Virus genome (UHGV): UHGV-0333071
DNA length: 24,121 nucleotides
Reading direction: 5' to 3' (one strand)
From: a virus
A program made the translations under genes and the position numbers. The stretch's first letter is position 1; each line of letters opens with the position of its first letter. Shown in pieces: positions 11,953-23,616 of this stretch. Below the pieces are notes generated by a model. It worked only from the letters and a program-made list of their open reading frames with translations, was not told the origin of the DNA and ran no database searches.

Positions 11953-13764
11953 ATGGCTAAATATTCCGATGAATTAAAAGAAGCGGCCCGCACGCTTTAT
12001 ATAAAAAGCTGGACGCCGAAAGATATTGCGCAGGAACTGAATATTCCACCGCGTACAATTTACCACTGGGCTGACGTCGGGAAGTGGGCATCACTGCTGC
12101 CTGTTGAATCGGTGGAAAATGTCATCGCCCGCCGTATCGACCAGCTCTCCCGCCGCGAGAAAAAAACAGCGCTGGAACTGGAAGAACTGCGCGATCTGAT
12201 TGCTCACCATGTGAAACTCATGGCGCAGCGCAGCAAGCACGCCGAAAAGCTGGCAGAAATTCAGGCTCAGAAAGCGGCTTATGATGGTGAAGGGTACTGC
12301 CTCAGCAGCGCAGGCGGGGAACCAGGGGAAAGAAAGCGCCGGTATAAGAAAAACGACGTTTCCGGTATTACAGCGGAAATGCTCGACACCTGGGCGCGGG
12401 AACATCTCTTCGAGTACCAGCTGCACTGCCGCGAACATAAAGGCGAAGACTGGCGCTTCATTCTGAAAAGCCGACAGGTCGGCATGACCTATTATTTCGC
12501 CTGGGAGGCATTCGAAGATGCTGTCATTACCGGTGATAACCAGGTCTTTTTCTCTGCAAGCCGCTCCCAGTCTGAAATCTTCCGTGAATACATCGTCCAG
12601 ATCGCCCAGAACCATTTCGGCGTGACGCTGACGGGTAAAAATATCCGCCTCAGCAACGGCGCAATACTGCGCTTTTTGTCCACGAACGCCAGCACCGCGC
12701 AGGGCTTTAACGGCCACCTGTATGGCGATGAGGTTTTCTGGATCCCGAAATTCACGCGCCTGCACGAAGTTGCCAGCGCAATGGCGACGCATAACAAATA
12801 CCGGACGACCTACTTTTCGACGCCCAGCGCGAAAACGCACCAGGCTTACCCGGTCTGGACTGGCGAAGCCTGGCGCGGGGACGACCCGAAACGCAAAGGT
12901 GTGGCGTTCCCGACAGAAAGCGAAATGCGCCAGGGTATTCTCTGCCCGGACCAGATCTGGCGCTACATCATCACGATGGAAGACGCTATCGAAGGTGGCC
13001 TCGGTGCGCTTGTCGATATTGAACGGCTGCGCAACAAATACAGCCCGACCGCGTTCGCCATGCTCTACATGTGCCAGTTCGTTGACAGTAAGGACGCGGT
13101 TTTCAAGTTCTCCGCGCTTGTCGGCTGTGAAGTGGACCGGGCCACATGGGGCGACTTTGATCTGACAGCTGCGCGGCCCTTCGGCAATCGCGAAGTATGG
13201 GCAGGCTTTGACCCGTCACGATCCGGCGACAACTCCACCTTTGTGTTAATCGCGCCCCCCATAGAGGACGGCGAGCGCTTCCGCGTGCTGGCCGTCTGGC
13301 AATGGCAGGGCTTTAACTTCAGCTGGCAGGCCGACCAGATAAAGCAGCTTATGCGCCGCTTTAACATCACTTACATCGGGATCGATACAACCGGCATAGG
13401 TAAGGGCGTTTATGACCTGGTCAGCAAGTTTGCACCTCGCGAAGCCACACCCATTCTTTACAGCGTCGAAAGCAAAAACCGCCTGGTAATGAAGATGATC
13501 GACGTTGTCGAGCGTAAACGCATCGAATGGGCAAAAGACGCCGTAGACGAAACGAACAAAGAGCGCGTCGAAATTCCGGCCAGCTTTATGGCTATCCGGC
13601 GCACGACAACCAACAGCGGCAACGCGCTGACGTTTGTTGCCGAACGTTCAGACGCGACCGGCCATGCAGATGTTTTCTTCGCTATCTCGCACGCCGTAAT
13701 TAACGAACCTATCGATCACGAATATGACCGCCCATCGGGCTGGTACTTTGGGAAAGCAGCATGA
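11953..13764 (+). CDS. P: Terminase large (ATPase) subunit, gpP-like
   Basis: 603-aa ORF, divergent from O and followed by the portal gene with 4-nt overlap. Confidence 0.85.
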   Translation: MAKYSDELKEAARTLYIKSWTPKDIAQELNIPPRTIYHWADVGKWASLLPVESVENVIARRIDQLSRREKKTALELEELRDLIAHHVKLMAQRSKHAEKLAEIQAQKAAYDGEGYCLSSAGGEPGERKRRYKKNDVSGITAEMLDTWAREHLFEYQLHCREHKGEDWRFILKSRQVGMTYYFAWEAFEDAVITGDNQVFFSASRSQSEIFREYIVQIAQNHFGVTLTGKNIRLSNGAILRFLSTNASTAQGFNGHLYGDEVFWIPKFTRLHEVASAMATHNKYRTTYFSTPSAKTHQAYPVWTGEAWRGDDPKRKGVAFPTESEMRQGILCPDQIWRYIITMEDAIEGGLGALVDIERLRNKYSPTAFAMLYMCQFVDSKDAVFKFSALVGCEVDRATWGDFDLTAARPFGNREVWAGFDPSRSGDNSTFVLIAPPIEDGERFRVLAVWQWQGFNFSWQADQIKQLMRRFNITYIGIDTTGIGKGVYDLVSKFAPREATPILYSVESKNRLVMKMIDVVERKRIEWAKDAVDETNKERVEIPASFMAIRRTTTNSGNALTFVAERSDATGHADVFFAISHAVINEPIDHEYDRPSGWYFGKAA

Positions 13765-14822
13765 CAAAGAAACAGCGTAATAATAAAAAATTCGGGTCCA
13801 TGACCGGCAGCAGGGTTGAAACCTTCACGCCAGGGCGCGGAAGCGTGATCACATTTGGCGAACCAGAACCCATCCTGACGACCGGCACGGATTATCACAA
13901 TATCTGGTATGACAATGAGTATGACCACTGGCGACTTCCGATTGATCGCCTGGCGCTGGCCCAGTTGCCGAACCTTAACGGCCAGCATGGTGGCGTACTG
14001 TATGCGCGGCGCAATATGGTTGCCGGTGGCTACATCGGCGGCGGCCTGACGCCGGACCAGGTCGAACAGGCTGTCTTTGATTACCTGCTGTTTGGTGACG
14101 TCGCTATCCTGAAAATTCGTAACGTATTCGGGGAAGTGATCGACCTGCTGCCGTTGCCGTCGCTGTATCTGCGCTGCCGGAAAGACGGCTCTTTTGCTGT
14201 TCTGCAGGAAGGGCCAGCGCTTATCTATGACCCGGAAGACATCGTATTCTTTAAAATGTACGACCCGCGCCAGCAAGTGTATGGCCTGCCTGACTATATC
14301 GGCGGCATCCATTCGGTGTTACTCAACAGTGAGGCAACCATCTTCCGACGCCGTTACTACAATAACGGGGCGCACATGGGCTTTATTCTCTATACCAGCG
14401 ATCCAAATCTGACGCTGGAAATGGAAAACGAAATCAAAGAGAAGATCGCCCAGTCCAAAGGGCTGGGTAACTTCCGCAATATGTTTATCAACATCCCGAA
14501 GGGCGACCCGGAAGGGGTTAAAATCATGCCAGTGGGCGAAGTCAGCGCAAAGGATGAATTCGCCAATATCAAAGGGATCACCGCACAGGATATCTTTACC
14601 GCCCACCGTTTCCCCGCAGGCCTGGCAGGTATCATCCCGACCAACGGCGCGGTAATGGGCAACCCTGAAACCGCCCGCACAACCTATCGCAAGGATGAAG
14701 TTATCCCCTTGCAGCGCAAGCTAATGAACGGCGTCAACAATGACCCGGAGATCCCCGCACACTTGCACCTGGTTTTTGACGTGGATATCCCGGCAATTAC
14801 CACCGAAAAGGGCGAAAAATGA
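13761..14822 (+). CDS. Q: Portal protein, gpQ-like
   Basis: 353-aa ORF downstream of P; P2-type P-then-Q order, size as P2 gpQ. Confidence 0.85.
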   Translation: MTKKQRNNKKFGSMTGSRVETFTPGRGSVITFGEPEPILTTGTDYHNIWYDNEYDHWRLPIDRLALAQLPNLNGQHGGVLYARRNMVAGGYIGGGLTPDQVEQAVFDYLLFGDVAILKIRNVFGEVIDLLPLPSLYLRCRKDGSFAVLQEGPALIYDPEDIVFFKMYDPRQQVYGLPDYIGGIHSVLLNSEATIFRRRYYNNGAHMGFILYTSDPNLTLEMENEIKEKIAQSKGLGNFRNMFINIPKGDPEGVKIMPVGEVSAKDEFANIKGITAQDIFTAHRFPAGLAGIIPTNGAVMGNPETARTTYRKDEVIPLQRKLMNGVNNDPEIPAHLHLVFDVDIPAITTEKGEK

Positions 14823-15145
14823 GCGCAGTTAAGTTAAAATCATCCCCATTGTTAGCAATGGCGTGCGGGATGGTGAACATGCGAGTTTTTAAAATTAAAT
14901 GCCCAGAATGCGGCTCACCGGCCATCATTCGTAAATCTGACTGGAAAGACAAAAAACTGGCTGATTTATACTGCGCCTGCACGGAAGTTGAATGCGGCCA
15001 CACCTTTGTTTTTAACGCCCAGTTTTCACATACCCTTAGCCCCAGCGGGCTGACTGGCAACAAGCTGGTTAAATTCCTGATTGACCGGCTCAAGCCGGAA
15101 GAAAAACAAATTGCTTTAGATTTGTTGAAAGGATTAAATGTATAA
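14819..15145 (+). CDS. ogr: Ogr/Delta-family zinc-finger late transcription activator
   Basis: Exact C-x2-C-x22-C-x4-C spacing (CPEC...22 aa...C-TEVE-C), the Ogr/Delta/186-B signature. Start is either 14819 (ATGA overlap with the Q stop) or the internal ATG at 14879 (MRVFKIKCPECG..). Confidence 0.8.
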   Translation: MSAVKLKSSPLLAMACGMVNMRVFKIKCPECGSPAIIRKSDWKDKKLADLYCACTEVECGHTFVFNAQFSHTLSPSGLTGNKLVKFLIDRLKPEEKQIALDLLKGLNV

Positions 15146-15171
15146 AAAGCTCCCCAGTTGGAGAGCTTTTT
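15144..15171. terminator. Bidirectional intrinsic terminator
   Basis: aaaaagctcccca / tggagagcttttt form an inverted repeat (about 11-13 bp stem, one mismatch) flanked by an A-run on one side and a T-run on the other, in the 33-bp gap between the convergent ogr-like and ATPase genes. Confidence 0.6.
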
Positions 15172-15178
15172 AAAATAG

Positions 15179-17467
15179 TTACACTGAGCCACTATATATA
15201 ATATTCAACGCCCTTGTGCAATATGCAATTAACTCCCCTGGGAATATAGGCTCATTTGCAGCATTAGCATTGGTATCATGATGAAATTTACCAGCATAGC
15301 TATTTATTTCATTTAACTCATTTGTAATTGACGAGGCATGGTGAAGAGGTGAACCAGGTTGTGACGCAACTATCGCCTGTACTATTTCACCAAACAACTT
15401 ACCTGATGGGATATGATTAGGGAATCGACGATGTAAATACCCCTCTAACAATGGACGAATTGCAGTAGCAACGTCTTTTTCATTATATGGTTCACCATTG
15501 ACATATCCACTTACTAATCGATGATTTTTATAATAAGCAGACTCGCATTCAATATCTAGATCAAGAGAAACAAGAGTACTAAACTGCCCATGCGTATGAA
15601 CAACTTTAATTAGAGACAAAAGATTCGGATCATTCAACTTCTTGATGAAGTCATCTCTTAACTTTTTAATAAAAAAAGCATCATGTGCTAAGATTATTAA
15701 CTGTTTGCAGTTATCACATATTTTTTTAAGTTCGTTTACTGTCTGTTGCTTTCTGTGTGTATCAAAACTACACATAGGGTCATCAATTAGTACAATTTTA
15801 TTAGTAAGATTTTGATCTTCAGATATGACAGCAATGAAAAATGCAAATGCAAGAGTGCGTTTGTCACCTTCGCTTAAACAGGTTTTGAACCCAGCATCTT
15901 CACCTTGTAATGTAATTCTATTTCCTCGAAGATTTAATGCATACTCGGTTCTAGGCTCTCCTGTGCCACGATAGTTATAGGTTACTTCTTCAATAGTAAA
16001 GGCTGCTCCAAACTTCTGAAGTAAAATATTAATCGATGATTCATATCGACCAAGAGTTGCCTGCATTATGGTATTAAGAGTGTTTTTTTTCGCTTCCTTT
16101 TCTGCTAAAGCCGCTGTTTCAACAGCTTTAGCAGCAGTATATTCATTAATCAAGTTAACTACAGCTGGAGAATATCGAGTCTTTATAGCATTGAGTCGAT
16201 TATTTTCTTCAGTCAATGTCTGAATATTAATATTTTCCAAGCTGGTTTTATAATCATCAATCTGGTTATTCAAAATGTCTAGTTGTTCATTAAACTCAGT
16301 AACACACTGAACCATTTTATCAATAATTGCCTGGCACTCACCTTCAAATTTTTGTTCTAACTTATCCAAAGGTGATGCAGTTTTTATTTTCACACAATCG
16401 GTTAATATTCCATCTAGTGAGGTTTTAAGCTCATCTAGCTTATTAATATCTAATGATGGTGTGTTTAGTGATAAGTATTCCCCCCAAGAAAGAATGTTTT
16501 CAGTAATGCTAATCTGCTCTTGGTTTTTTAATGGTATATTAAAGGATGACAATATGGCCGCTTTTTTGTTTTCTAATAAGCTTATCTCTTTAATGAAATT
16601 TCTATATTCTGTATTAAAGTATGTTTTATAAGCATCTATAAGACTAAGTCCTTCCACTGTTTGCGCGCAAAAAGGACAAGTATCTTCTTTTAAAAATTTC
16701 TGCCCATCACTTATCCATTTTTGAGCACCATCATCAGATAAATGCTGGAAATGTGCATCAACTACAGAACTTGCATTCTCATCAATTTTATCAACAGTTG
16801 TATACATTACATTAAAGAAATTCTGTATATCCACTGTGAATTCAGTCAGCTTTTTAAGTTTGTTTTTATTTTTAATAACACTAATTCTTTGGGACTTACC
16901 TTGTTCCACTAAGTTAGCAGCGATCAAATCATCAATATTATCAATACTTCTCAGGCGTATATATTGAGATAGGGTATAATGACCACGATAACCAGTTAAT
17001 CTTGCCTCTACATTTCTTTTTGCAGTAGTACAATTTGTGGCATGTTGACTAGCTGCATCAAACTCTATCTTTGCAGCAACAGCCGACTGACCTAACGCAA
17101 AACTTAGGAGGTTTTTTCTTTGCCCTGGTGTAATTTCACCTCCAGAATAAACATTCGTATCTATAAAATCCAAATCAAAAACATGAAAATCAGTAAACTT
17201 CCTATCCCATTGATTATTTTCAAACTTAGCTCTATTTCCTTGACTAAATTGCAGATCAATAAATTGATCTACACTAGAGTTAAATGTCTTTCTGCTCAAT
17301 AACACATTAGACGCTGAGTGTGTATAAGAACGCATTATTGATGCAAGAGTTGACTTCCCCCTTCCATTATCGCCATAAATTAATGATATTTTTTTGAATT
17401 GAATGGCTGCAGGACGGATGTCGTTAAAGAGACCAACACCAGTAATCTTATGAATTCTTTCTAACAT
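15179..17467 (-). CDS. Rad50/SMC-like ABC ATPase with CxxC zinc-hook coiled-coil and C-terminal nuclease-like domain (RloC-like anticodon-nuclease candidate); putative anti-phage defence protein
   Basis: 762-aa ORF in strongly AT-rich DNA. Walker A GDNGRGKST (aa 32-40), long coiled-coil insertion with CPFC at aa 264-267 (nt 16667-16678), ABC signature LSEGDKR (aa 531-537), Walker B IVLIDDP (aa 558-564), H-loop LAHD (aa 593-596), then about 150 aa containing R671-x3-E675 and HH709-710. AAGGA RBS 7 nt upstream. Confidence 0.6.
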   Translation of the reverse strand: MLERIHKITGVGLFNDIRPAAIQFKKISLIYGDNGRGKSTLASIMRSYTHSASNVLLSRKTFNSSVDQFIDLQFSQGNRAKFENNQWDRKFTDFHVFDLDFIDTNVYSGGEITPGQRKNLLSFALGQSAVAAKIEFDAASQHATNCTTAKRNVEARLTGYRGHYTLSQYIRLRSIDNIDDLIAANLVEQGKSQRISVIKNKNKLKKLTEFTVDIQNFFNVMYTTVDKIDENASSVVDAHFQHLSDDGAQKWISDGQKFLKEDTCPFCAQTVEGLSLIDAYKTYFNTEYRNFIKEISLLENKKAAILSSFNIPLKNQEQISITENILSWGEYLSLNTPSLDINKLDELKTSLDGILTDCVKIKTASPLDKLEQKFEGECQAIIDKMVQCVTEFNEQLDILNNQIDDYKTSLENINIQTLTEENNRLNAIKTRYSPAVVNLINEYTAAKAVETAALAEKEAKKNTLNTIMQATLGRYESSINILLQKFGAAFTIEEVTYNYRGTGEPRTEYALNLRGNRITLQGEDAGFKTCLSEGDKRTLAFAFFIAVISEDQNLTNKIVLIDDPMCSFDTHRKQQTVNELKKICDNCKQLIILAHDAFFIKKLRDDFIKKLNDPNLLSLIKVVHTHGQFSTLVSLDLDIECESAYYKNHRLVSGYVNGEPYNEKDVATAIRPLLEGYLHRRFPNHIPSGKLFGEIVQAIVASQPGSPLHHASSITNELNEINSYAGKFHHDTNANAANEPIFPGELIAYCTRALNIIYSGSV

Positions 17468-17635
17468 GATATATCCTTTAATGTCATGCGGTTTAGATTC
17501 GGTTGATAATCTACTTTTTTATAAAATCGCCTTCAACCCCAAATTAAGATTCCTCTTAAATCACAAATTTCATTGATCACTATCACATTTTTACGCCCTT
17601 GATTTTAATTCTGTAGTGAAATTAATTTGTAGCTA
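17468..17635 (-). promoter_or_regulatory. Promoter/leader region of the island ATPase gene (candidate -35 TTGAAG / 17-bp spacer / -10 TAGATT on minus strand)
   Basis: 168-bp AT-rich gap between the A stop and the ATPase start; hexamers at plus coordinates 17531-17536 and 17508-17513; RBS at about 17475-17479. Promoter call is by eye only. Confidence 0.3.
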
Positions 17636-20227
17636 TTAATTTCTCAACATCTTCCAGTATTCTCCAATAGGGTCGAAACGAAGTTTTGACGAAGCTACTC
17701 CATGCTCATCACGCAGCCGCTCCCATAATTTATTCACCGTCCGTGACTCGTTGGGTAATTGACGCGTTATCAACTGGCCGCCAGCACTGGCCCGATAAAC
17801 TTTGCCGCTAATCTCCAGACGGCTCCCCATTAACAGCGAAACGGCCTGAATCTCTGAAATCTCAACCAAACACAACGCCGCATCAGCCAGCAGACTGGCA
17901 ACCGCAGGGGCAAGAACTGCCCGCTTGGCTTTTTCAGCCGCCGATCTGGCCTCGGTTTTTTCCACGGCAGAACGCCAGGCGGTATCTAATTCGCTTCCTA
18001 GCTCGTAAGGCGATCCGCTTTTCTGCCTTTTGAATGGTGTTTCACGTAGTCGCCGCATCAATTTGCGCCGCGTTGACTGGTCCATATTTTCAAAATCGAC
18101 GATTTCTTCTTCTGACTCTTCTGTCATACCCTCCACATCAGGCGAAAAATTGGTGATTTTTTCGGCTTCCGTAGAGTTATTGACAGAACTCCAAGCGTCG
18201 CCGGTTGGCGACGGCAAAAGATCAACCCCCAAACCGGGGCCGTTTTGGGCCTCGGTGTTAGCTTTGTATTTGGCGCGGATTTTCCACTTAACCAGACGAG
18301 TGCAAATACGGGAGGCATCACCCAGACGCGGCGACCAGACCCCGAAAACCTTTTCGGGGATCTCACAATAAGCATTCATTTCATCAGCTGGCTGATAGGC
18401 CAGACGGACGACATAGTTTTCACGCGGGATCAAAACACCACCCTGGCGGATGATGTAGGTAGCAAAGCACCCGACATCGGCAGCGGCGCAAACCGCATCC
18501 ATTGCAGGATCCACAAGCAACGGCGCACCGCGCTTGAAGGTATTGTCAATTTTCTGGCGGGTCGTGATCTGATTGCTCAGTTTGCGCAGCTCGCGGTAAA
18601 CCGATATGGGCGGCTGTCCGATGGGCTGAAACTGGCGGATGCGGTGGAGTGACGCCCAGGCCATTGCATATTTGGCTGTTTCATTCAGCGGCTTGCCGCT
18701 TTCGTCGTCCAGTTCACCGGCCAGCGCGTGACCGTCGATATTCTTCGAAATGTATTTGGCGATATACGCCGTTGCTGACCCTTTCCGTGGGTCCATTTTT
18801 TTTGACTTGAAACGAGCACCGGTATTGCGGCCCAGCTCGTCGCGGTCTTCCGCAATGAAGTAGGCGCGAAGGATCGCAACCGTGGCTTTAACCTGCTCTT
18901 GTGGCATAAATAGCAACGCGTGCCAGTGTGGCGTCCCATCGTGATGCGGTTCGGCGACGCGGAAGCCATAAGGGCGCAAATCTTCGCGTTTCAGTTTGGC
19001 GGTTGCCCGGTTCCATACACGGCATAAATAGCGCTGCGCCTGGGCGACGGTGGAATGATTCCATTTGGCGTTATGGTGGCCGGACGCAATATTGCTGTGA
19101 TATTTCGACGGGCAAGTAATGGTCAGGAAGATGCCAACATCGCCGCGACTTTGGGCGACAAGTTCAACCCCAGCCATTCGGGCCATAAGCTCATGGCGAC
19201 GAATAGCCGGGTTAGACGTGGATTTATTAATCATTTCCTCAAGCGACGAAACGTTGCCGTCTTCGTCTACCAGTTCATGACTTTTGAAAAAATCCCGGTT
19301 CTTACGGCGCTGTTCCTGCCACTCGATCAGGCTGGAAGCGCTAACGTAGACGTGCGCTTTTTTATTTACCGCGCCAACAGCACGCAGCTGGTTCTCGCGC
19401 CAGTCACAACGCAAGCGCCAGATTTTGCGCCCCCACCAGTCAGGTGAAGCCATACGCAAAATGGCCGTGCATATGCGCTCGCGTTCCCACGGCGCATACC
19501 ATGCAGGCGGCACAATACGAAGCGCCAGCATTTCGCGGCCCAGGTGGCAATAAAGCCAGTCCAGTTCTTCGACGTTCATGTCGGAAACATTCCGCCCCAG
19601 GGCTTCGCATTCCGTCCCAAGCATTTCAGCCATGCGGCTGGCGATCTCATTAGCGGCGCTTAGTGCCTCCCGCTTTGTGAAATCAGCCAGTCGTTGCCAG
19701 CGCCCGAACCAGTACGCGGCCAGTTCGCCGGTGAGATCAGGCGAAACACCTTGCCTTGTGCGCACAACATCAAGACGCAGCAATGATTTTTTCACGGTCC
19801 CCATAAGAAAATCATTGGTGTGTCTGGCTTCACGGTTGGCCCGTAACCATTCAATTTTTTTGCGCCAGACTTCACGAATGAAGAACGGCTCTGATAATAA
19901 ACGCGCTTCGACACCTTCCGACGTATTGGCCCAGGCTGCCGCCGTAGCTTTGGCGGCTTCCATTTCCTGCCGGATTATATTTTGATGGACGGCCAGTGGC
20001 AGGCCGCACGGTTCGTACCTGTCCAGCGCCTGGATAAGCGCGTTACGGTCGCGAACATCGTCGGGGTTGTAACCGGCGCGTTTGAAGATGTGATCGATGT
20101 GTTTTTTTACGGCAGGATGATGCGCCACCGCCCCGGCAAGCGGGGCGATTTTTTTCGGTTCGTAGGTGTACAGGCCAACAGCTGGGCGCGGCGCGTTCCA
20201 GGACCATGCAAAAGCGGCGTCAGACAT
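17636..20227 (-). CDS. A: Replication initiation endonuclease, P2 gpA family
   Basis: N-terminus ..AFAWSWNAPRPAVG.. resembles P2 gpA (..AYAWNAPREAVG..) as recalled. Preferred start is the ATG at 20227 (GAGG RBS); the ORF track uses GTG at 20248. Confidence 0.85.
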   Translation of the reverse strand: MSDAAFAWSWNAPRPAVGLYTYEPKKIAPLAGAVAHHPAVKKHIDHIFKRAGYNPDDVRDRNALIQALDRYEPCGLPLAVHQNIIRQEMEAAKATAAAWANTSEGVEARLLSEPFFIREVWRKKIEWLRANREARHTNDFLMGTVKKSLLRLDVVRTRQGVSPDLTGELAAYWFGRWQRLADFTKREALSAANEIASRMAEMLGTECEALGRNVSDMNVEELDWLYCHLGREMLALRIVPPAWYAPWERERICTAILRMASPDWWGRKIWRLRCDWRENQLRAVGAVNKKAHVYVSASSLIEWQEQRRKNRDFFKSHELVDEDGNVSSLEEMINKSTSNPAIRRHELMARMAGVELVAQSRGDVGIFLTITCPSKYHSNIASGHHNAKWNHSTVAQAQRYLCRVWNRATAKLKREDLRPYGFRVAEPHHDGTPHWHALLFMPQEQVKATVAILRAYFIAEDRDELGRNTGARFKSKKMDPRKGSATAYIAKYISKNIDGHALAGELDDESGKPLNETAKYAMAWASLHRIRQFQPIGQPPISVYRELRKLSNQITTRQKIDNTFKRGAPLLVDPAMDAVCAAADVGCFATYIIRQGGVLIPRENYVVRLAYQPADEMNAYCEIPEKVFGVWSPRLGDASRICTRLVKWKIRAKYKANTEAQNGPGLGVDLLPSPTGDAWSSVNNSTEAEKITNFSPDVEGMTEESEEEIVDFENMDQSTRRKLMRRLRETPFKRQKSGSPYELGSELDTAWRSAVEKTEARSAAEKAKRAVLAPAVASLLADAALCLVEISEIQAVSLLMGSRLEISGKVYRASAGGQLITRQLPNESRTVNKLWERLRDEHGVASSKLRFDPIGEYWKMLRN

Positions 20228-20241
20228 GGGATGCCTCGCTA

Positions 20242-21246
20242 TTACCACGTTTCCGGGTTATCGGACGGCTCGCAAATATCGCAGTTGCCTCGACAATCAA
20301 ACGACCATCCCTCCTCACATGCGGCGATACCTGGGCAACATTTCGCACAGTGACCACCTTCATAGCGCCCGCAGCCATCACAGACAGGCAGCACGCCGAT
20401 TACTTCACTGGCGGCCCCTCGGGTAATGGCGTTCGCGCTGACAGAACGGTTAACGCTGATTTCCTGGAAGTTGAAAGCGCGATAAATCTCGCGGGTAGCT
20501 GGGGTGTCGCTATTTGACAGGATCACCGGCGAACCAGTAAGGCGGTTAGTATCCAGCAGGGCGGCAGCTAACTGGCGATGCTCTTTAATGCCAAACGGGG
20601 CAGTGTGGTATTGGGTGAAATTAGCGGTGTCGCTTGCTGGCAGGTATGGCGGATCGCAGTAGATAACCGCGTCACTACCAATCATGATTTTTAACGTGCT
20701 CTGGAAATCGCAGCACACGAAAATAGCTTTCGTGTCGTTAGCTTTTTCAGAGAATAAACGGATCTGTTCTTCCGGGAAATAAGGCGGGGTTTTGTGTCGC
20801 CCAAAGGGAACGTTATATCCACCCTGTTGGTTGTAGCGTACTACGCCGTTATATCCGTGACGGTTCAGGTAAAGAAATTGTGCTGCACGAAGAATCTTGC
20901 CCGTGTCCGGTCCGTCCTCAAACACATTGCGCGATGACAGAAGGTCATGGGCGCGAGCGTTGAAATCGTCGCGGATCCACTTATAGCCGTCTTTATCGCC
21001 GTACACTTTAAACAGCGGGCGAGCAGCGTCTATCACCGCATCAGGCCAGCGGGTTATCTGGCGATACAGGTTAATTAAATCTGGGTTGATATCACTCAGG
21101 ATATAACGGCGATATTCAGTATTGAGGAAAACAGAAGCACCGCCGACAAACGGTTCCACCAGGCAATCGGCTTTTGGCAGAATCGGCAGCAAATCAGGCA
21201 TAACGCGGCCTTTACCACCGGGCCATTTAACGAGAGATCGAATCAT
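20242..21246 (-). CDS. dam: DNA adenine methyltransferase (Dam family, GATC-type) with Cys-rich C-terminal extension
   Basis: Near-colinear similarity to E. coli Dam as recalled (..KWPGGKG.., ..CLVEPFVGGASVFLNT.., ..FLYLNRHGYNGVVRYN.., ..VIYCDPPY..). Extra C-terminal tail of about 50 aa with ten cysteines. Confidence 0.85.
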   Translation of the reverse strand: MIRSLVKWPGGKGRVMPDLLPILPKADCLVEPFVGGASVFLNTEYRRYILSDINPDLINLYRQITRWPDAVIDAARPLFKVYGDKDGYKWIRDDFNARAHDLLSSRNVFEDGPDTGKILRAAQFLYLNRHGYNGVVRYNQQGGYNVPFGRHKTPPYFPEEQIRLFSEKANDTKAIFVCCDFQSTLKIMIGSDAVIYCDPPYLPASDTANFTQYHTAPFGIKEHRQLAAALLDTNRLTGSPVILSNSDTPATREIYRAFNFQEISVNRSVSANAITRGAASEVIGVLPVCDGCGRYEGGHCAKCCPGIAACEEGWSFDCRGNCDICEPSDNPETW

Positions 21247-21943: not shown

Positions 21944-22081
21944 GTTGATCTCCGTCATATTCAAAAAGTGCCGGGATACAACCCCACGCCCGGCGCGTGT
22001 TTCCTGTGATAACATCGCTATGCCTGTGAAACTTTGAGAGGTGAATCAGGCATAACAATCACCAACACAGAAGGAGTTGTA

Positions 22082-22543
22082 ATGAAATTCAATGTTTTTT
22101 TAAAAGTAAACCATGGCGCACACTGGGTTCTCTCCTCCGGCTCACCTATTTTTGAAAGCACTTTATTTGAAACACGGCCAGAGGCTATTAATGACCTTGA
22201 AAAATTTGTAACCGGCATGGAATCACCAACATTTATTGACAATGACAATAGCGATAGCCCCTCCCCAGCAACAGTTATTTTCAAACAGATTGATTCCCGC
22301 TGGCATTGGACATTATTTTTTTCATTCAATGGAGTACGATCTAAAATCGCCGAAAGCTCAGAAAAAGGCTTTGACTCATTAGAACTTGCCAAACAAAAAG
22401 CCAAGATTTTCTGTAATTCCATTGTCGACGCTCCAATTCTTGACCAGTTTGATATTGCCATTCCTGGCCTAGGCTTCACAAAATCCTTTGAACATGCACA
22501 TAACATCGGCGACATTCACCCATCTAGTAAATGGGTAAAGTAA
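22082..22543 (+). CDS. YegP/DUF1508-like tandem-domain protein (unknown function)
   Basis: Only plus-strand gene in the early region; AAGGAG RBS 6 nt before the ATG at 22082; AT-rich. Two roughly 50-aa segments (KFNVFLKVNHGAHWVLSSGSPIFESTLFETRPEAINDLEKF and WHWTLFFSFNGVRSKIAESSEKGFDSLELAKQKAKIF) follow the YegP repeat pattern as recalled. Confidence 0.45.
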   Translation: MKFNVFLKVNHGAHWVLSSGSPIFESTLFETRPEAINDLEKFVTGMESPTFIDNDNSDSPSPATVIFKQIDSRWHWTLFFSFNGVRSKIAESSEKGFDSLELAKQKAKIFCNSIVDAPILDQFDIAIPGLGFTKSFEHAHNIGDIHPSSKWVK

Positions 22544-22547
22544 GCAG

Positions 22548-22895
22548 TCATTGTGGCGTTACAATTTTTCTTGTGCGGGGTGGAACATCTCGCACGGTTT
22601 CATCATCAACAATCAATTCATAAATTTGAATGCTGTTATCAGATTTTGATATTTCATCAAATACCTGAAAAAGAAAACTCATGAATTGCTCATAAGTAAC
22701 AGTAGGATCAATAAACCCTCCCGCAACACATAACAAAGGTGTTAGTCCTGAGTTATTCACTACTGAGATACTATTCAACTGATCAAGACGAAAAAAATAA
22801 TTACCGGCCGGTGTTCTTTTATCATTTATATGAATAAACACATTTGATAATGCTATATGACTATCTGAGAGTTTAAAGATTTTTGCCGTGTCCAT
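22548..22895 (-). CDS. Hypothetical protein (115 aa), AT-rich cargo gene downstream of cox
   Basis: A long ORF in AT-rich DNA is unlikely by chance. Sits 22 nt downstream of the cox stop; tail-to-tail with the YegP-like gene with a 4-nt gap. RBS is weak. Confidence 0.45.
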   Translation of the reverse strand: MDTAKIFKLSDSHIALSNVFIHINDKRTPAGNYFFRLDQLNSISVVNNSGLTPLLCVAGGFIDPTVTYEQFMSFLFQVFDEISKSDNSIQIYELIVDDETVRDVPPRTRKIVTPQ

Positions 22896-22917
22896 TTTAT
22901 TCAGCCCTGTAAGTTGC

Positions 22918-23193
22918 TTATGATGGATTGCCCAGACCCAACCACATTAACCACCCTTCCCTAATTTCCTTCGGGCGGCTCTCATACGCCATTTTCATTC
23001 CGTTGTTCCAGGCTGGGAGGTAGACCCAGTACTCACCTGCCCGCCCGGAAGTTGATTGCGGATCGGTCATCTCAACTACGGGTAGCTTTCCTTTTTCAAT
23101 CATTCCCCTTACTGCTGCCGGTGTTTTGCCGATCAGTTTTGCAAACTCCTGGTACGGGACAGCATCACTAATACTGACAACTTGTTTGCTCAT
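22918..23193 (-). CDS. cox: Cox (excisionase / repressor of the lysogenic promoter)
   Basis: 91 aa, near-identical along its length to P2 Cox as recalled (..AVPYQEFAKLIGK..GKLPVVEMTDPQS..GRAGEYWVYLPAWNNG..ESRPKEIREGWLMWLGLG..). Confidence 0.9.
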   Translation of the reverse strand: MSKQVVSISDAVPYQEFAKLIGKTPAAVRGMIEKGKLPVVEMTDPQSTSGRAGEYWVYLPAWNNGMKMAYESRPKEIREGWLMWLGLGNPS

Positions 23194-23316
23194 CTGCTAA
23201 CCTCGTATCTAGATCTAACCAATGGGTTTCAAAGTTCTTTAATGGGCTTTGATGCACATTGACAACATCTAAAACCACATTAGAGAGTTTCGATAATATT
23301 AGAGGATCTTGATAAC
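23194..23316. promoter_or_regulatory. C/cox switch region: candidate C-operator direct repeats and convergent promoters
   Basis: Direct repeats AATGGGTTTCAAAG (23221-23234) and AATGGGCTTTGATG (23241-23254), 20 bp apart, bracket a candidate early-promoter -10 on the minus strand (about 23236-23241). A perfect TTGACA sits on the plus strand at 23259-23264, and GATAAT at 23292-23297. Confidence 0.45.
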
Positions 23317-23616
23317 ATGTCAACGCCCATAAGCGAAAAACTAGCGTTAGTTCGTGAGTCAGAGCGACTAAACCGGAAGCAATTCGCTGAAATAACAGGA
23401 GTTCCTTACAGTTCTCTAACTTATTATGAGAGCGGAAGAACTACGCCACCCACTGACGTAACGATGAAAATTCTCCAGCACCCCAGATTTAGCAAATACA
23501 CGTTGTGGTTTATGACAGATCAGGTTGCTCCCGAAGCCGGTCAGATAGCACCGGCCCTCGCACACTTTGGGCAAGATGTAACAACATCGCAGCACTCAGA
23601 CCAAAAGATTGGTTAA
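23317..23616 (+). CDS. C: Immunity repressor C
   Basis: 99 aa, closely matching P2 C as recalled (MS..ISEK..L.R.SE.L.R.Q.A..TGVPY..L.YYESGR.TPPTDV.M.ILQ.P.F.KYTLWFMT.Q.APE.GQIAPALAHFGQ..). Confidence 0.9.
   Translation: MSTPISEKLALVRESERLNRKQFAEITGVPYSSLTYYESGRTTPPTDVTMKILQHPRFSKYTLWFMTDQVAPEAGQIAPALAHFGQDVTTSQHSDQKIG

What the first reader, a model, noticed from the sequence alone, without database searches (positions are those of the whole stretch)
15179..17467. Single-gene RloC-like defence candidate: ABC ATPase with zinc-hook coiled-coil and C-terminal nuclease-like domain
Seen in the sequence: a 762-aa protein with a split ABC ATPase head (Walker A GDNGRGKST; signature LSEGDKR; Walker B IVLIDDP; H-loop LAHD) interrupted by a roughly 480-aa insertion that contains CPFC near its middle, the Rad50-type zinc-hook layout. 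The last ~150 aa carry R-x3-E followed about 34 residues later by HH, reminiscent of the Arg/Glu/His arrangement of the PrrC/RloC anticodon-nuclease domain (from memory). Established knowledge: RloC is a Rad50-like, zinc-hook-containing relative of PrrC, proposed as a translation-disabling antiviral back-up. Inference: this is a phage-borne RloC-type tRNA-cleaving defence or superinfection-exclusion factor. It has no adjacent partner gene. If the C-terminal domain is not an anticodon nuclease, the protein would be a new ATPase-effector fusion.
Basis: partly seen in the sequence, partly recalled or inferred. Interest (0 to 1): 0.85.

Follow-up and report, generated by a model that had tools for sequence, protein, structure and literature searches.

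The report
Prophage-borne divergent RloC-like ATPase–HEPN nuclease
A P2-like prophage carries, in its known swap-in slot for anti-phage genes, one gene for a Rad50-like ATPase fused to an RNA-cutting (HEPN) domain; it is a divergent relative of the known tRNA-cutting protein RloC, so it is interesting but not a new kind of system.

The parts
15179..17467 (-). CDS, 762 aa: RloC-like ABC ATPase / hook arm / HEPN protein
   Evidence: ORF. Pfam AAA_13 1.9e-38. PADLOC PDC-S06 3e-76. 219 homologues.
17129..17467 (-). ABC ATPase N-lobe (res 1-113) with Walker A GDNGRGKST at 17348-17374 (K38)
   Evidence: K38 is present in 208/208 relatives.
16010..17128 (-). Helical arm inserted in the ATPase head (res 114-486)
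   Evidence: AF2 model: helices 114-486, with a low-confidence apex at 244-266. Foldseek hits are SMC/Rad50/JetC/Lamassu/retron PtuA heads with coiled coils.
16667..16678 (-). CPFC (C264, C267): putative zinc hook
   Evidence: C264 and C267 are present in 208/208 relatives, with W251, G255 and Q269 nearly invariant. The motif aligns with TCPFC of the APEC O1 protein.
15563..16009 (-). ABC ATPase C-lobe (res 487-635): signature LSEGDKR, Walker B IVLIDDP (a DD pair, not DE), H-loop LAHD, then a beta-hairpin
   Evidence: The hhalign anchor runs from the H-loop onward.
15182..15562 (-). C-terminal HEPN-fold domain (res 636-762), the predicted RNase
15443..15457 (-). R671-P-L-L-E675: the Arg and Glu of the PrrC/RloC-type triad
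   Evidence: R671 and E675 are present in 208/208 relatives. They align with R and E of MRNILE in the APEC O1/PrrC-type profile.
15278..15283 (-). H729-H730: conserved His pair, the predicted catalytic His
   Evidence: Present in 205/208 and 208/208 relatives. The low-confidence extension of the hhalign alignment pairs H730 with the His of ...INRxSH. The pair is kept in viral relatives of 25-32% identity.
15338..15343 (-).
   Evidence: Present in only 17/208 and 101/208 relatives.
17468..17635 (-). 168-nt AT-rich spacer between the gpA stop and the ATG. It has an AAGGA ribosome-binding site 7 nt before the ATG. An own promoter is possible but not shown.
   Evidence: Sequence. The promoter scan found no site above background on this strand.
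15145..15171 (.). Hairpin AAAAGCTC-N10-GAGCTTTT flanked by A and T runs, between the convergent ogr-like gene and this gene; a likely bidirectional terminator
   Evidence: Read directly from the sequence. The scan did not report it.
15104..17699 (.). Swapped cargo cassette (2596 bp, 33.7% GC)
   Evidence: blastn against Salmonella phage SW5 breaks at 15103 and 17700. SW5 has a 66-aa ORF plus a methylase there. GC values.
17636..20248 (-). Flank: P2 gpA-type replication endonuclease
   Evidence: Pfam Phage_GPA. 94.7% identical to the SW5/SI7 gene.
13761..15145 (+). Flank: portal (13761-14822) and Ogr/Delta-type regulator (14819-15145)
   Evidence: Pfam Phage_portal and Ogr_Delta. phrog_603. 97.6% identical to SW5.

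Best explanation
This is a prophage-encoded, single-polypeptide RloC-type protein. It has a Rad50/SMC-like ABC ATPase head, split by a ~370-aa helical arm that carries a conserved CP[FY]C hook, followed by a C-terminal HEPN ribonuclease domain.

Shown here:
- the motifs, the fold and their family-wide conservation;
- homology to a canonical AAA_13 protein that matches the PrrC model: BLASTP over the ATPase, arm and hook, and profile-profile comparison into the C-terminal region;
- the position of the gene as the only cargo in the gpA-portal hotspot of a P2-like prophage.

Inferred by analogy with Geobacillus and Acinetobacter RloC (PMC2610378, PMC3458546, PMC3874168):
- The protein dimerises through its ATP-engaged heads and through zinc shared by two hooks.
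- The ATPase and hook keep the HEPN RNase silent in the lysogen.
- DNA ends or abnormal replication DNA made by an infecting phage switch the RNase on.
- Using R671, E675 and H729/H730, the RNase cuts tRNA anticodon loops or another translation RNA. Translation stops, the incoming phage's cycle aborts, and the lysogen population and the prophage are protected.
For: Architecture and motifs:
- Walker A, signature, DD-type Walker B and H-loop are present.
- K38, D562, D563, C264 and C267 are 208/208 and H595 is 207/208 in relatives down to 26% identity.

Fold:
- The full-length AF2 model has pLDDT 83 and matches SMC/Rad50/JetC/Lamassu heads.

Family placement:
- Pfam AAA_13 1.9e-38 and PADLOC PDC-S06 3e-76.
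- IMG names relatives 'wobble nucleotide-excising tRNase'.

Link to canonical RloC/PrrC:
- The 738-aa ATPase in the gpA-portal slot of the APEC O1 P2-like prophage matches the PADLOC PrrC model (9.7e-13) and the whole AAA_13 model.
- It aligns with this protein over residues 25-612, with the CPFC motifs in register (E 3e-10).
- Profile-profile comparison from the H-loop onward gives Prob 94%, E 1.5e-7, with R671 aligned to R and E675 to E.
- The nuclease domain alone scores 25.1, against 11.2 +/- 2.2 (maximum 21.4) for 100 column-shuffled controls.
- R671, E675 and H730 are 208/208.

Context:
- The cassette is low-GC. The same slot holds other cargo in phage SW5.
- Relatives sit in the same slot of Klebsiella and Providencia P2-like prophages, in an E. 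coli lambdoid prophage, beside BstA-like or reverse-transcriptase genes, and in 13 IMG/VR viral contigs.
- The gpA-gpQ interval is a documented hotspot of anti-phage systems (PMC9122126).
Against: - There is no experimental evidence for this subfamily. PDC-S06 is only a candidate group.
- The HEPN domain is not matched by Pfam AAA_13 positions 590-713 or by the PADLOC PrrC model, either in the whole protein or alone.
- The arginine of the HEPN Rx4-6H motif is absent. R at position 723 occurs in only 25/208 relatives.
- The Glu-to-His spacing is 53-54 residues, just outside the 36-52 range given for RloC in PMC2610378.
- The His alignment lies in the low-confidence part of the hhalign alignment.
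- The domain-only P-value (7.5e-4) is modest.
- I could not inspect the model coordinates, so I have not shown that R671, E675 and H729/H730 cluster in space.
- No promoter was identified, so expression in the lysogen is unproven.
- The identity of the APEC O1 gene with 'APECO1_4465'/'APECO1 RloC' rests on its position, size and prophage context, not on an accession match.
Confidence: 0.62

Rival explanations
1. The architecture is the same, but the HEPN domain is a general RNase acting on mRNA or rRNA, as in RnlA/LsoA or Csm6, rather than an anticodon nuclease. The outcome is still abortive infection, but with a different RNA target.
For: The C-domain matches generic HEPN folds but not the PrrC/RloC nuclease models. 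Its motifs differ from the canonical ones: LEGYLHRRFP and NxYAGxFHHD instead of MRNILEYYF and RYINRxSHSD.
Against: Profile-profile comparison links the domain specifically to the PrrC/RloC-type C-domain, with Arg and Glu in register. Both characterised RloCs, which share only 33% identity, cleave tRNA (PMC3874168).
Confidence: 0.2
2. The protein is a DNA-transaction or prophage-maintenance factor, for example an SMC/Rad50-like DNA tether or an addiction module. Its HEPN domain would be non-catalytic, serving in RNA or ligand binding or in dimerisation, as in MtlR-type HEPN domains.
For: The best structural matches of the whole protein are DNA-binding SMC/Rad50 heads. The Rx4-6H arginine is missing. 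About a quarter of P2 hotspots carry non-defence cargo (PMC9122126).
Against: Arg, Glu and His are invariant at the positions that are catalytic in PrrC/RloC. No Mre11/SbcD-like partner gene is present. The Walker B is the DD type seen in the PrrC/RloC-type sequences here (IDDP), not the DE type expected for Rad50/SMC from general knowledge. Relatives lie next to other defence genes.
Confidence: 0.1
3. The protein is an OLD/Gabija-like ABC ATPase with a DNA nuclease effector. This is the alternative the first reader raised.
For: P2 itself carries old, an ABC ATPase plus TOPRIM protein, in this slot (PMC9122126; bioRxiv 10.64898/2026.07.10.737580). There are weak PADLOC hits to AriA, AbiLi and mad3 ATPases.
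Confidence: 0.02

Closest known systems
RloC (Geobacillus kaustophilus, Acinetobacter baylyi; Davidov & Kaufmann 2008, Klaiman 2012, 2014)
   Same: One polypeptide of 658-897 aa. PrrC-like ABC motifs. A coiled-coil arm with a CxxC hook. A C-terminal R-x3-E...H domain assigned to the HEPN superfamily. A stand-alone gene that is rarely linked to R-M genes.
   Different: The Glu-to-His spacing is 53-54 residues, not 36-52. The motif is FHHD rather than 'SH'. The RYINR arginines are missing, and there is an extra invariant LHRRFP motif. The hook is at residue 264, against 291 and 314 in the two characterised proteins. Activity is untested.
E. coli APEC O1 P2-prophage AAA_13 ATPase (APECO1_RS04465, 738 aa); probably 'APECO1 RloC' (PMC3458546) and 'APECO1_4465' ABC-HEPN (PMC3710099)
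   Same: It occupies the same gpA-portal slot of a P2-like prophage and has the same architecture. BLASTP aligns the ATPase, arm and hook, with the hooks in register; profile-profile comparison extends the match into the C-terminal region. Both hit PADLOC PDC-S06.
   Different: Identity is only 21%. The APEC O1 protein matches the PADLOC PrrC model and the full AAA_13 model, including the nuclease part, and the window protein does not. It has relatives in deposited phage genomes, some annotated 'translation-disabling ACNase', whereas the window protein has none.
PrrC anticodon nuclease
   Same: An ABC ATPase with DD-type Walker B (IDDP, as in the PrrC-size relative P0352) plus a C-terminal R-x3-E...H HEPN domain. 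It is a translation-disabling back-up defence.
   Different: PrrC is about 400 aa with no arm or hook. It is always embedded in a type Ic hsd locus and is activated by phage Stp. There is no hsd locus here, and the PrrC model does not match.
P2 Old (ABC ATPase + TOPRIM), same hotspot
   Same: Single-gene cargo of the gpA-portal slot. An ABC ATPase sensor fused to a nuclease. It was recently reported to act as a tRNase triggered by DNA defects (bioRxiv 10.64898/2026.07.10.737580).
   Different: Its effector is TOPRIM, not HEPN. It has no long arm or hook. It is not homologous beyond the ABC core.
PADLOC candidate PDC-S06
   Same: The best model, PDLC04895, matches at 3e-76, and all relatives tested also hit it best.
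   Different: The match stops at about residue 689, so the last ~70 aa, including the HH motif, are not covered. PDC-S06 is a computational candidate without validation.

Membership tests
RloC (as defined in PMC2610378) | PrrC-like ABC ATPase motifs (Walker A, signature, Walker B/D-loop, H-loop) | tested here: met
   Motifs verified and conserved. AAA_13 1.9e-38. BLASTP to the APEC O1 protein E 3e-10.
RloC (as defined in PMC2610378) | Coiled-coil insert in the ATPase head with a conserved CxxC at its apex | tested here: met
   Helical insert at res 114-486. C264 and C267 are 208/208. CPFC is in register with the APEC O1 protein. Zinc binding itself cannot be tested here.
RloC (as defined in PMC2610378) | C-proximal Arg-X3-Glu-X36-52-His triad | tested here: inconclusive
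   R671 and E675 are 208/208, H730 is 208/208 and H729 is 205/208. The spacing is X53/X54, 54 in 193/208 relatives, which is just outside the stated range. The His pairing comes from the low-confidence part of the alignment.
RloC (as defined in PMC2610378) | Size 658-897 aa | tested here: met
   The protein is 762 aa. Relatives are 730-850 aa.
RloC (as defined in PMC2610378) | C-domain recognised by sequence models of the PrrC/RloC nuclease | tested here: not met
   The AAA_13 match ends at model position 589 of 713. There is no PADLOC PrrC hit. The C-domain alone has no Pfam or PADLOC hit. The APEC O1 protein and the PrrC-size P0352 cover AAA_13 to position 713. Only profile-profile comparison links the domains.
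RloC (as defined in PMC2610378) | Wobble-nucleotide-excising tRNase activity, regulated by the zinc hook and a DNA-dependent ATPase | not testable with these tools
   This needs expression, tRNA analysis and mutants.
PrrC | About 400 aa, no coiled-coil insert, embedded in a type Ic hsd R-M locus | tested here: not met
   The protein is 762 aa with a 373-aa insert. The neighbours are phage genes only.
HEPN superfamily | All-alpha up-down helical bundle fold | tested here: met
HEPN superfamily | Rx4-6H catalytic motif | tested here: not met
   H729/H730 are conserved, but R at position 723 occurs in only 25/208 relatives and no other conserved R/K lies 4-6 residues upstream.
Rad50/SbcC | Adjacent Mre11/SbcD nuclease partner gene | tested here: not met
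   No partner gene is present. The Walker B is IDDP, with D562 and D563 in 208/208 relatives, rather than the DE pair expected for Rad50/SMC from general knowledge.
OLD / Gabija GajA class | C-terminal TOPRIM nuclease | tested here: not met
   The C-domain is all-helical with a HEPN fold.
P2 gpA-gpQ hotspot cargo (PMC9122126) | Variable genes between the replication endonuclease and the portal of a P2-like phage | tested here: met
   Flanks identified. The same slot in SW5 has different content. The cassette is low-GC.
PADLOC PDC-S06 | Match to a PDC-S06 model | tested here: met
   PDLC04895 at 3e-76 over residues 1-689.

The most novel reading that the evidence does not exclude
This protein may represent a large, uncharacterised sister clade of RloC, with 1149 clusters at 50% identity. 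Its HEPN site has been rebuilt: R-x3-E plus LHRRFP on one helix, a [FY]HH pair before the last helix, and no Rx4-6H arginine. Such a site could have a different RNA target or a different cleavage chemistry from PrrC/RloC. Together with P2 Old, it would show that the P2 gpA-portal slot repeatedly recruits unrelated ABC-ATPase-coupled RNases that sense DNA and shut down translation.
Probability: 0.25. Interest if true: 0.55.

Novelty: new member of a known kind. Interest (0 to 1): 0.35.

Why it matters
tRNA- and translation-targeting nucleases are now recognised as a common anti-phage strategy. RloC itself has never been tied to a specific phage trigger, and no structure of PrrC or RloC turned up in the PDB searches here.

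This clade offers a compact, single-gene version carried by P2-like and lambdoid prophages of enterobacteria, so it can be tested directly in E. coli or Salmonella. Its altered active-site motifs could show which residues of the PrrC/RloC nuclease are truly essential.

For annotation, these proteins are currently labelled only 'AAA family ATPase'. The conserved His pair 729/730 is the one to mutate, not 709/710.

Tried and rejected
- Direct searches found nothing. megablast of the gene against 5426 E. coli genomes gave no hit. tblastn against 50,697 phage records gave no hit.
- phmmer and profile searches of PDB sequences found only generic ABC/Rad50 heads for the whole protein, and chance gyrase B matches for the C-domain. 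Foldseek against PDB structures also returned no PrrC or RloC entry.
- The C-domain alone had no hit in Pfam, PADLOC or PHROGs.
- The AlphaFold-database fold library (afdb50) was unavailable, so I could not compare the model with predicted PrrC/RloC structures.
- The supplement of the HEPN paper holds no alignments.
- I could not obtain the sequences of G. kaustophilus or A. baylyi RloC, or of E. coli PrrC. As a canonical proxy I used the APEC O1 prophage protein, found by walking the annotated genome, together with its PrrC-size relatives.
- A first hhalign run with the shallow 22-sequence alignment gave only P 0.005. It improved when I used 122 more diverse sequences.
- The promoter and terminator scan was uninformative in this AT-rich DNA.
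- There are no tRNA genes and no Rfam matches in the window.
- The TOPRIM/OLD and Rad50-Mre11 readings were rejected on fold and context.
Full report
**1. Observation**

The ORF at 15179-17467 on the minus strand starts with ATG and encodes 762 aa.
- Walker A GDNGRGKST (K38)
- signature LSEGDKR (531-537)
- Walker B IVLIDDP (558-564)
- H-loop LAHD (593-596)
- CPFC (264-267)
- RPLLE (671-675)
- HH (709-710)

The gene is not a chance ORF. It is a 2.3-kb open frame in 34% GC DNA. It has 219 homologues in the large protein collection, nearly all about 760 aa and aligned end to end.

Two details need correction. The helical insertion is about 373 aa (res 114-486 in the AlphaFold model), not about 480 aa.

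**2. Surroundings**

The window is part of a P2-like (Peduoviridae) phage genome. The exact protein is found on a 27-kb metagenome contig that also encodes integrase, repressor, Cox, Fil, a Dam-type methylase, gpA, this gene, Ogr/Delta, portal, terminase and capsid and tail genes.

The flanks are 94-98% identical to Salmonella phages SW5, SW3 and SI7 of the genus Irrigatiovirus. Homology to SW5 stops at 15103 and resumes at 17700. In that interval SW5 carries a 66-aa ORF and a DNA methylase instead.

The cassette is 33.7% GC, against 54-55% in the flanks. It lies between the replication endonuclease gpA and the portal. Rousset et al. (PMC9122126) described exactly this interval as the P2 hotspot of anti-phage systems; in P2 itself it holds old and tin.

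The gene is alone in the cassette. A hairpin flanked by A and T runs (15145-15171) separates it from the convergent ogr-like gene. A 168-nt AT-rich spacer with an AAGGA ribosome-binding site precedes the ATG. The scan identified no promoter.

**3. Anatomy of the ATPase and arm**

Pfam assigns AAA_13, the family that covers canonical RloC-like and PrrC-size proteins end to end, at 1.9e-38. The match covers only model positions 130-589 of 713. PADLOC's best hit is the unvalidated candidate PDC-S06 (3e-76, residues 1-689), and no PrrC model hit appears.

The full-length AlphaFold model has pLDDT 83. It shows an ABC head made of residues 1-113 and 487-635, a broken helical arm at 114-486, and a low-confidence apex around C264/C267. 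Foldseek against the PDB returns SMC, Rad50, JetC, Lamassu and retron PtuA heads.

In 208 full-length relatives (26-87% identity to the window protein), K38, D562, D563, C264 and C267 are invariant, and H595, W251 and G255 are nearly so. The Walker B is of the 'DD' type (IDDP), as in the PrrC/RloC-type sequences examined here. From general knowledge, Rad50/SMC heads have 'DE' at this position.

**4. The C-terminal domain**

Within the family, R671 and E675 are 208/208, H730 is 208/208 and H729 is 205/208. Viral relatives with only 25-32% identity still keep R-x3-E ... [FY]HH.

**5. Link to canonical RloC/PrrC**

I could not retrieve the characterised RloC or PrrC sequences. Klaiman et al. (PMC3458546) refer to an 'E. 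coli APECO1 RloC', and Anantharaman et al. describe 'APECO1_4465', an ABC-HEPN protein found in prophages.

Walking the annotated APEC O1 genome, I found a P2-like prophage at 919.8-950 kb. Its gpA-portal slot holds a 738-aa 'AAA family ATPase'. Identifying this gene with the published names is my inference from position, size and context. That protein matches:
- the whole AAA_13 model, positions 11-713;
- PADLOC PDC-S06 at 1e-254;
- the PADLOC PrrC model at 9.7e-13, over its C-terminal 240 residues.

Its C-terminus reads ...MRNILEYYF...FYRYINRGSHSD, that is R-x3-E-x39-SH. This fits the RloC motif of Davidov & Kaufmann (PMC2610378): R-X3-E-X36-52-H, often with Ser before His. Its relatives include PrrC-size proteins of 396 aa.

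The window protein aligns with the APEC O1 protein at 21% identity over residues 25-612 (E 3e-10), with TCPFC opposite TCPFC.

I then ran profile-profile comparison with hhalign. The query was 122 sequences of the window's family, starting at the H-loop. The target was 77 APEC O1/PrrC-type sequences.
- The full comparison gives Prob 94% and E 1.5e-7. It aligns the beta-hairpin, the first helix and IRPLLEGYL with MRNILEYYF, so R pairs with R and E with E.
- Restricted to the nuclease domain, the score is 25.1 (P 7.5e-4). One hundred column-shuffled controls gave 11.2 +/- 2.2, maximum 21.4.
- The low-confidence extension of the alignment places H730 opposite the catalytic His and H729 opposite the preceding Ser.

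I conclude that the C-domain is a divergent homologue of the PrrC/RloC nuclease domain. The homology is beyond the reach of single-profile models. The domain differs from the canonical one in three ways. It lacks the RYINR arginines: R at position 723 occurs in only 25/208 relatives. It has a three-residue longer loop before the His. It adds an invariant LHRRFP motif after the Glu.

**6. Distribution**

The C-domain profile finds 1149 clusters at 50% identity, 741 of them below 1e-10. The best 150 are all proteins of about 760 aa with the domain at the C-terminus, or fragments of such proteins.

Members occur in several mobile contexts:
- the same gpA-portal slot of Klebsiella and Providencia P2-like prophages;
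- a lambdoid E. coli prophage beside hok/gef;
- an integrase island next to a KilA-N/BstA-like gene in Pseudomonas;
- next to a reverse transcriptase in Pseudoalteromonas;
- 13 IMG/VR viral contigs, one 99% identical to the window protein.

No neighbour is conserved, which is consistent with a self-contained single-gene system. The clade is rare in E. coli: the E. coli version is in 8 of 5426 complete genomes. It is absent from deposited phage genomes. The canonical APEC O1 type is present in nine phage records, four of them annotated 'translation-disabling ACNase'.

**7. Mechanism**

What is shown is the architecture, the fold, the conserved residues, the homology and the mobile-cargo context. 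What follows is inferred from the RloC literature (PMC2610378, PMC3458546, PMC3874168).
- Dimers are held by ATP-engaged heads and by a shared zinc at the hooks.
- The ATPase and hook silence the nuclease.
- DNA ends or damage activate it.
- It then cuts tRNA anticodon loops and stops translation.

In a prophage this would abort infection by competing phages. The recent report that P2 Old, the cargo of the same slot, is an ABC-ATPase-coupled tRNase triggered by DNA defects (bioRxiv 10.64898/2026.07.10.737580) makes this functional theme plausible for the locus.

The substrate is the weakest link. The active-site motifs differ from those of PrrC/RloC, so a different RNA target remains possible.

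**8. Comparison and novelty**

By the 2008 definition the protein meets the ATPase, hook and size criteria. It has the Arg/Glu/His triad with a spacing one or two residues outside the published range. It fails recognition by the PrrC/RloC nuclease sequence models and lacks the HEPN Rx4-6H arginine.

It is not a PrrC: it has an arm and no hsd locus. It is not a Rad50/SbcC: it has no Mre11/SbcD partner and a DD-type Walker B. It is not of the OLD class: it has no TOPRIM domain.

Prophage-borne ABC-HEPN proteins were already noted in 2013. The wider group is listed by PADLOC as PDC-S06 and labelled by IMG as 'wobble nucleotide-excising tRNase'. I therefore rate it a new, divergent member of a known kind.

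Interest is moderate at 0.35. The finding is a good experimental handle on an under-studied defence protein, and it corrects which residues to mutate, but it would not surprise a specialist. The most novel reading still open is that this clade has a rebuilt HEPN site with a different target or chemistry. I give that a probability of about 0.25.

Noticed in passing
window 15104-17699 (breakpoints 15103 and 17700): The cargo swap relative to Salmonella phage SW5 has its breakpoints inside the 3' ends of both flanking genes: the last ~14 codons of the ogr-like gene and the last ~21 codons of gpA. The exchange therefore replaced the gene ends as well as the intergenic cargo.
   Followed up: partly
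window 15145-15171: A hairpin, AAAAGCTC-N10-GAGCTTTT, is flanked by A and T runs between the convergent ogr-like gene and the 762-aa gene. It is probably a bidirectional terminator. The consensus scan did not report it.
   Followed up: partly
window 22000-23500: A second low-GC patch (39-41%) lies between cox and fil. It holds two convergent ORFs of unknown function: 22548-22895 (-) in phrog_10410 and 22034-22543 (+) in phrog_9021. It may be another variable cargo spot.
   Followed up: partly
L010:43266-44852 (E. coli APEC O1, NC_008563.1 943266-944852): The APEC O1 P2-like prophage carries a second accessory gene after the tail-fibre assembly gene, annotated 'P-loop ATPase, Sll1717 family'. 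An IS21-family element next to it interrupts the tail sheath gene.
   Followed up: no
L003:8001-10292 and hit H16 (NZ_CP053787.1): The E. coli member of this clade (46% identity) sits in a lambdoid prophage between a DUF977 gene and hok/gef. It occurs in only 8 of 5426 complete genomes, and one copy is split by IS1.
   Followed up: partly
L011:3765-5054 and L015:8897-9649: Relatives in Pseudoalteromonas and Pseudomonas lie next to a reverse-transcriptase gene and a KilA-N/BstA_C gene respectively. This suggests defence-island neighbourhoods outside prophages.
   Followed up: no
window 13761-15145: The Ogr/Delta-type regulator gene overlaps the portal stop codon by 4 nt (14819-14822), so it sits directly downstream of the portal at the edge of the hotspot. 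From memory, this is a different position from ogr in P2.
   Followed up: no
window 15179-17467, residues ~690-762: All tested family members match the closest PADLOC model (PDLC04895) only up to about residue 685-711. The proteins that model was built from therefore probably carry a different C-terminal tail after the R-x3-E helix. That would indicate further variation of the effector end within PDC-S06.
   Followed up: partly
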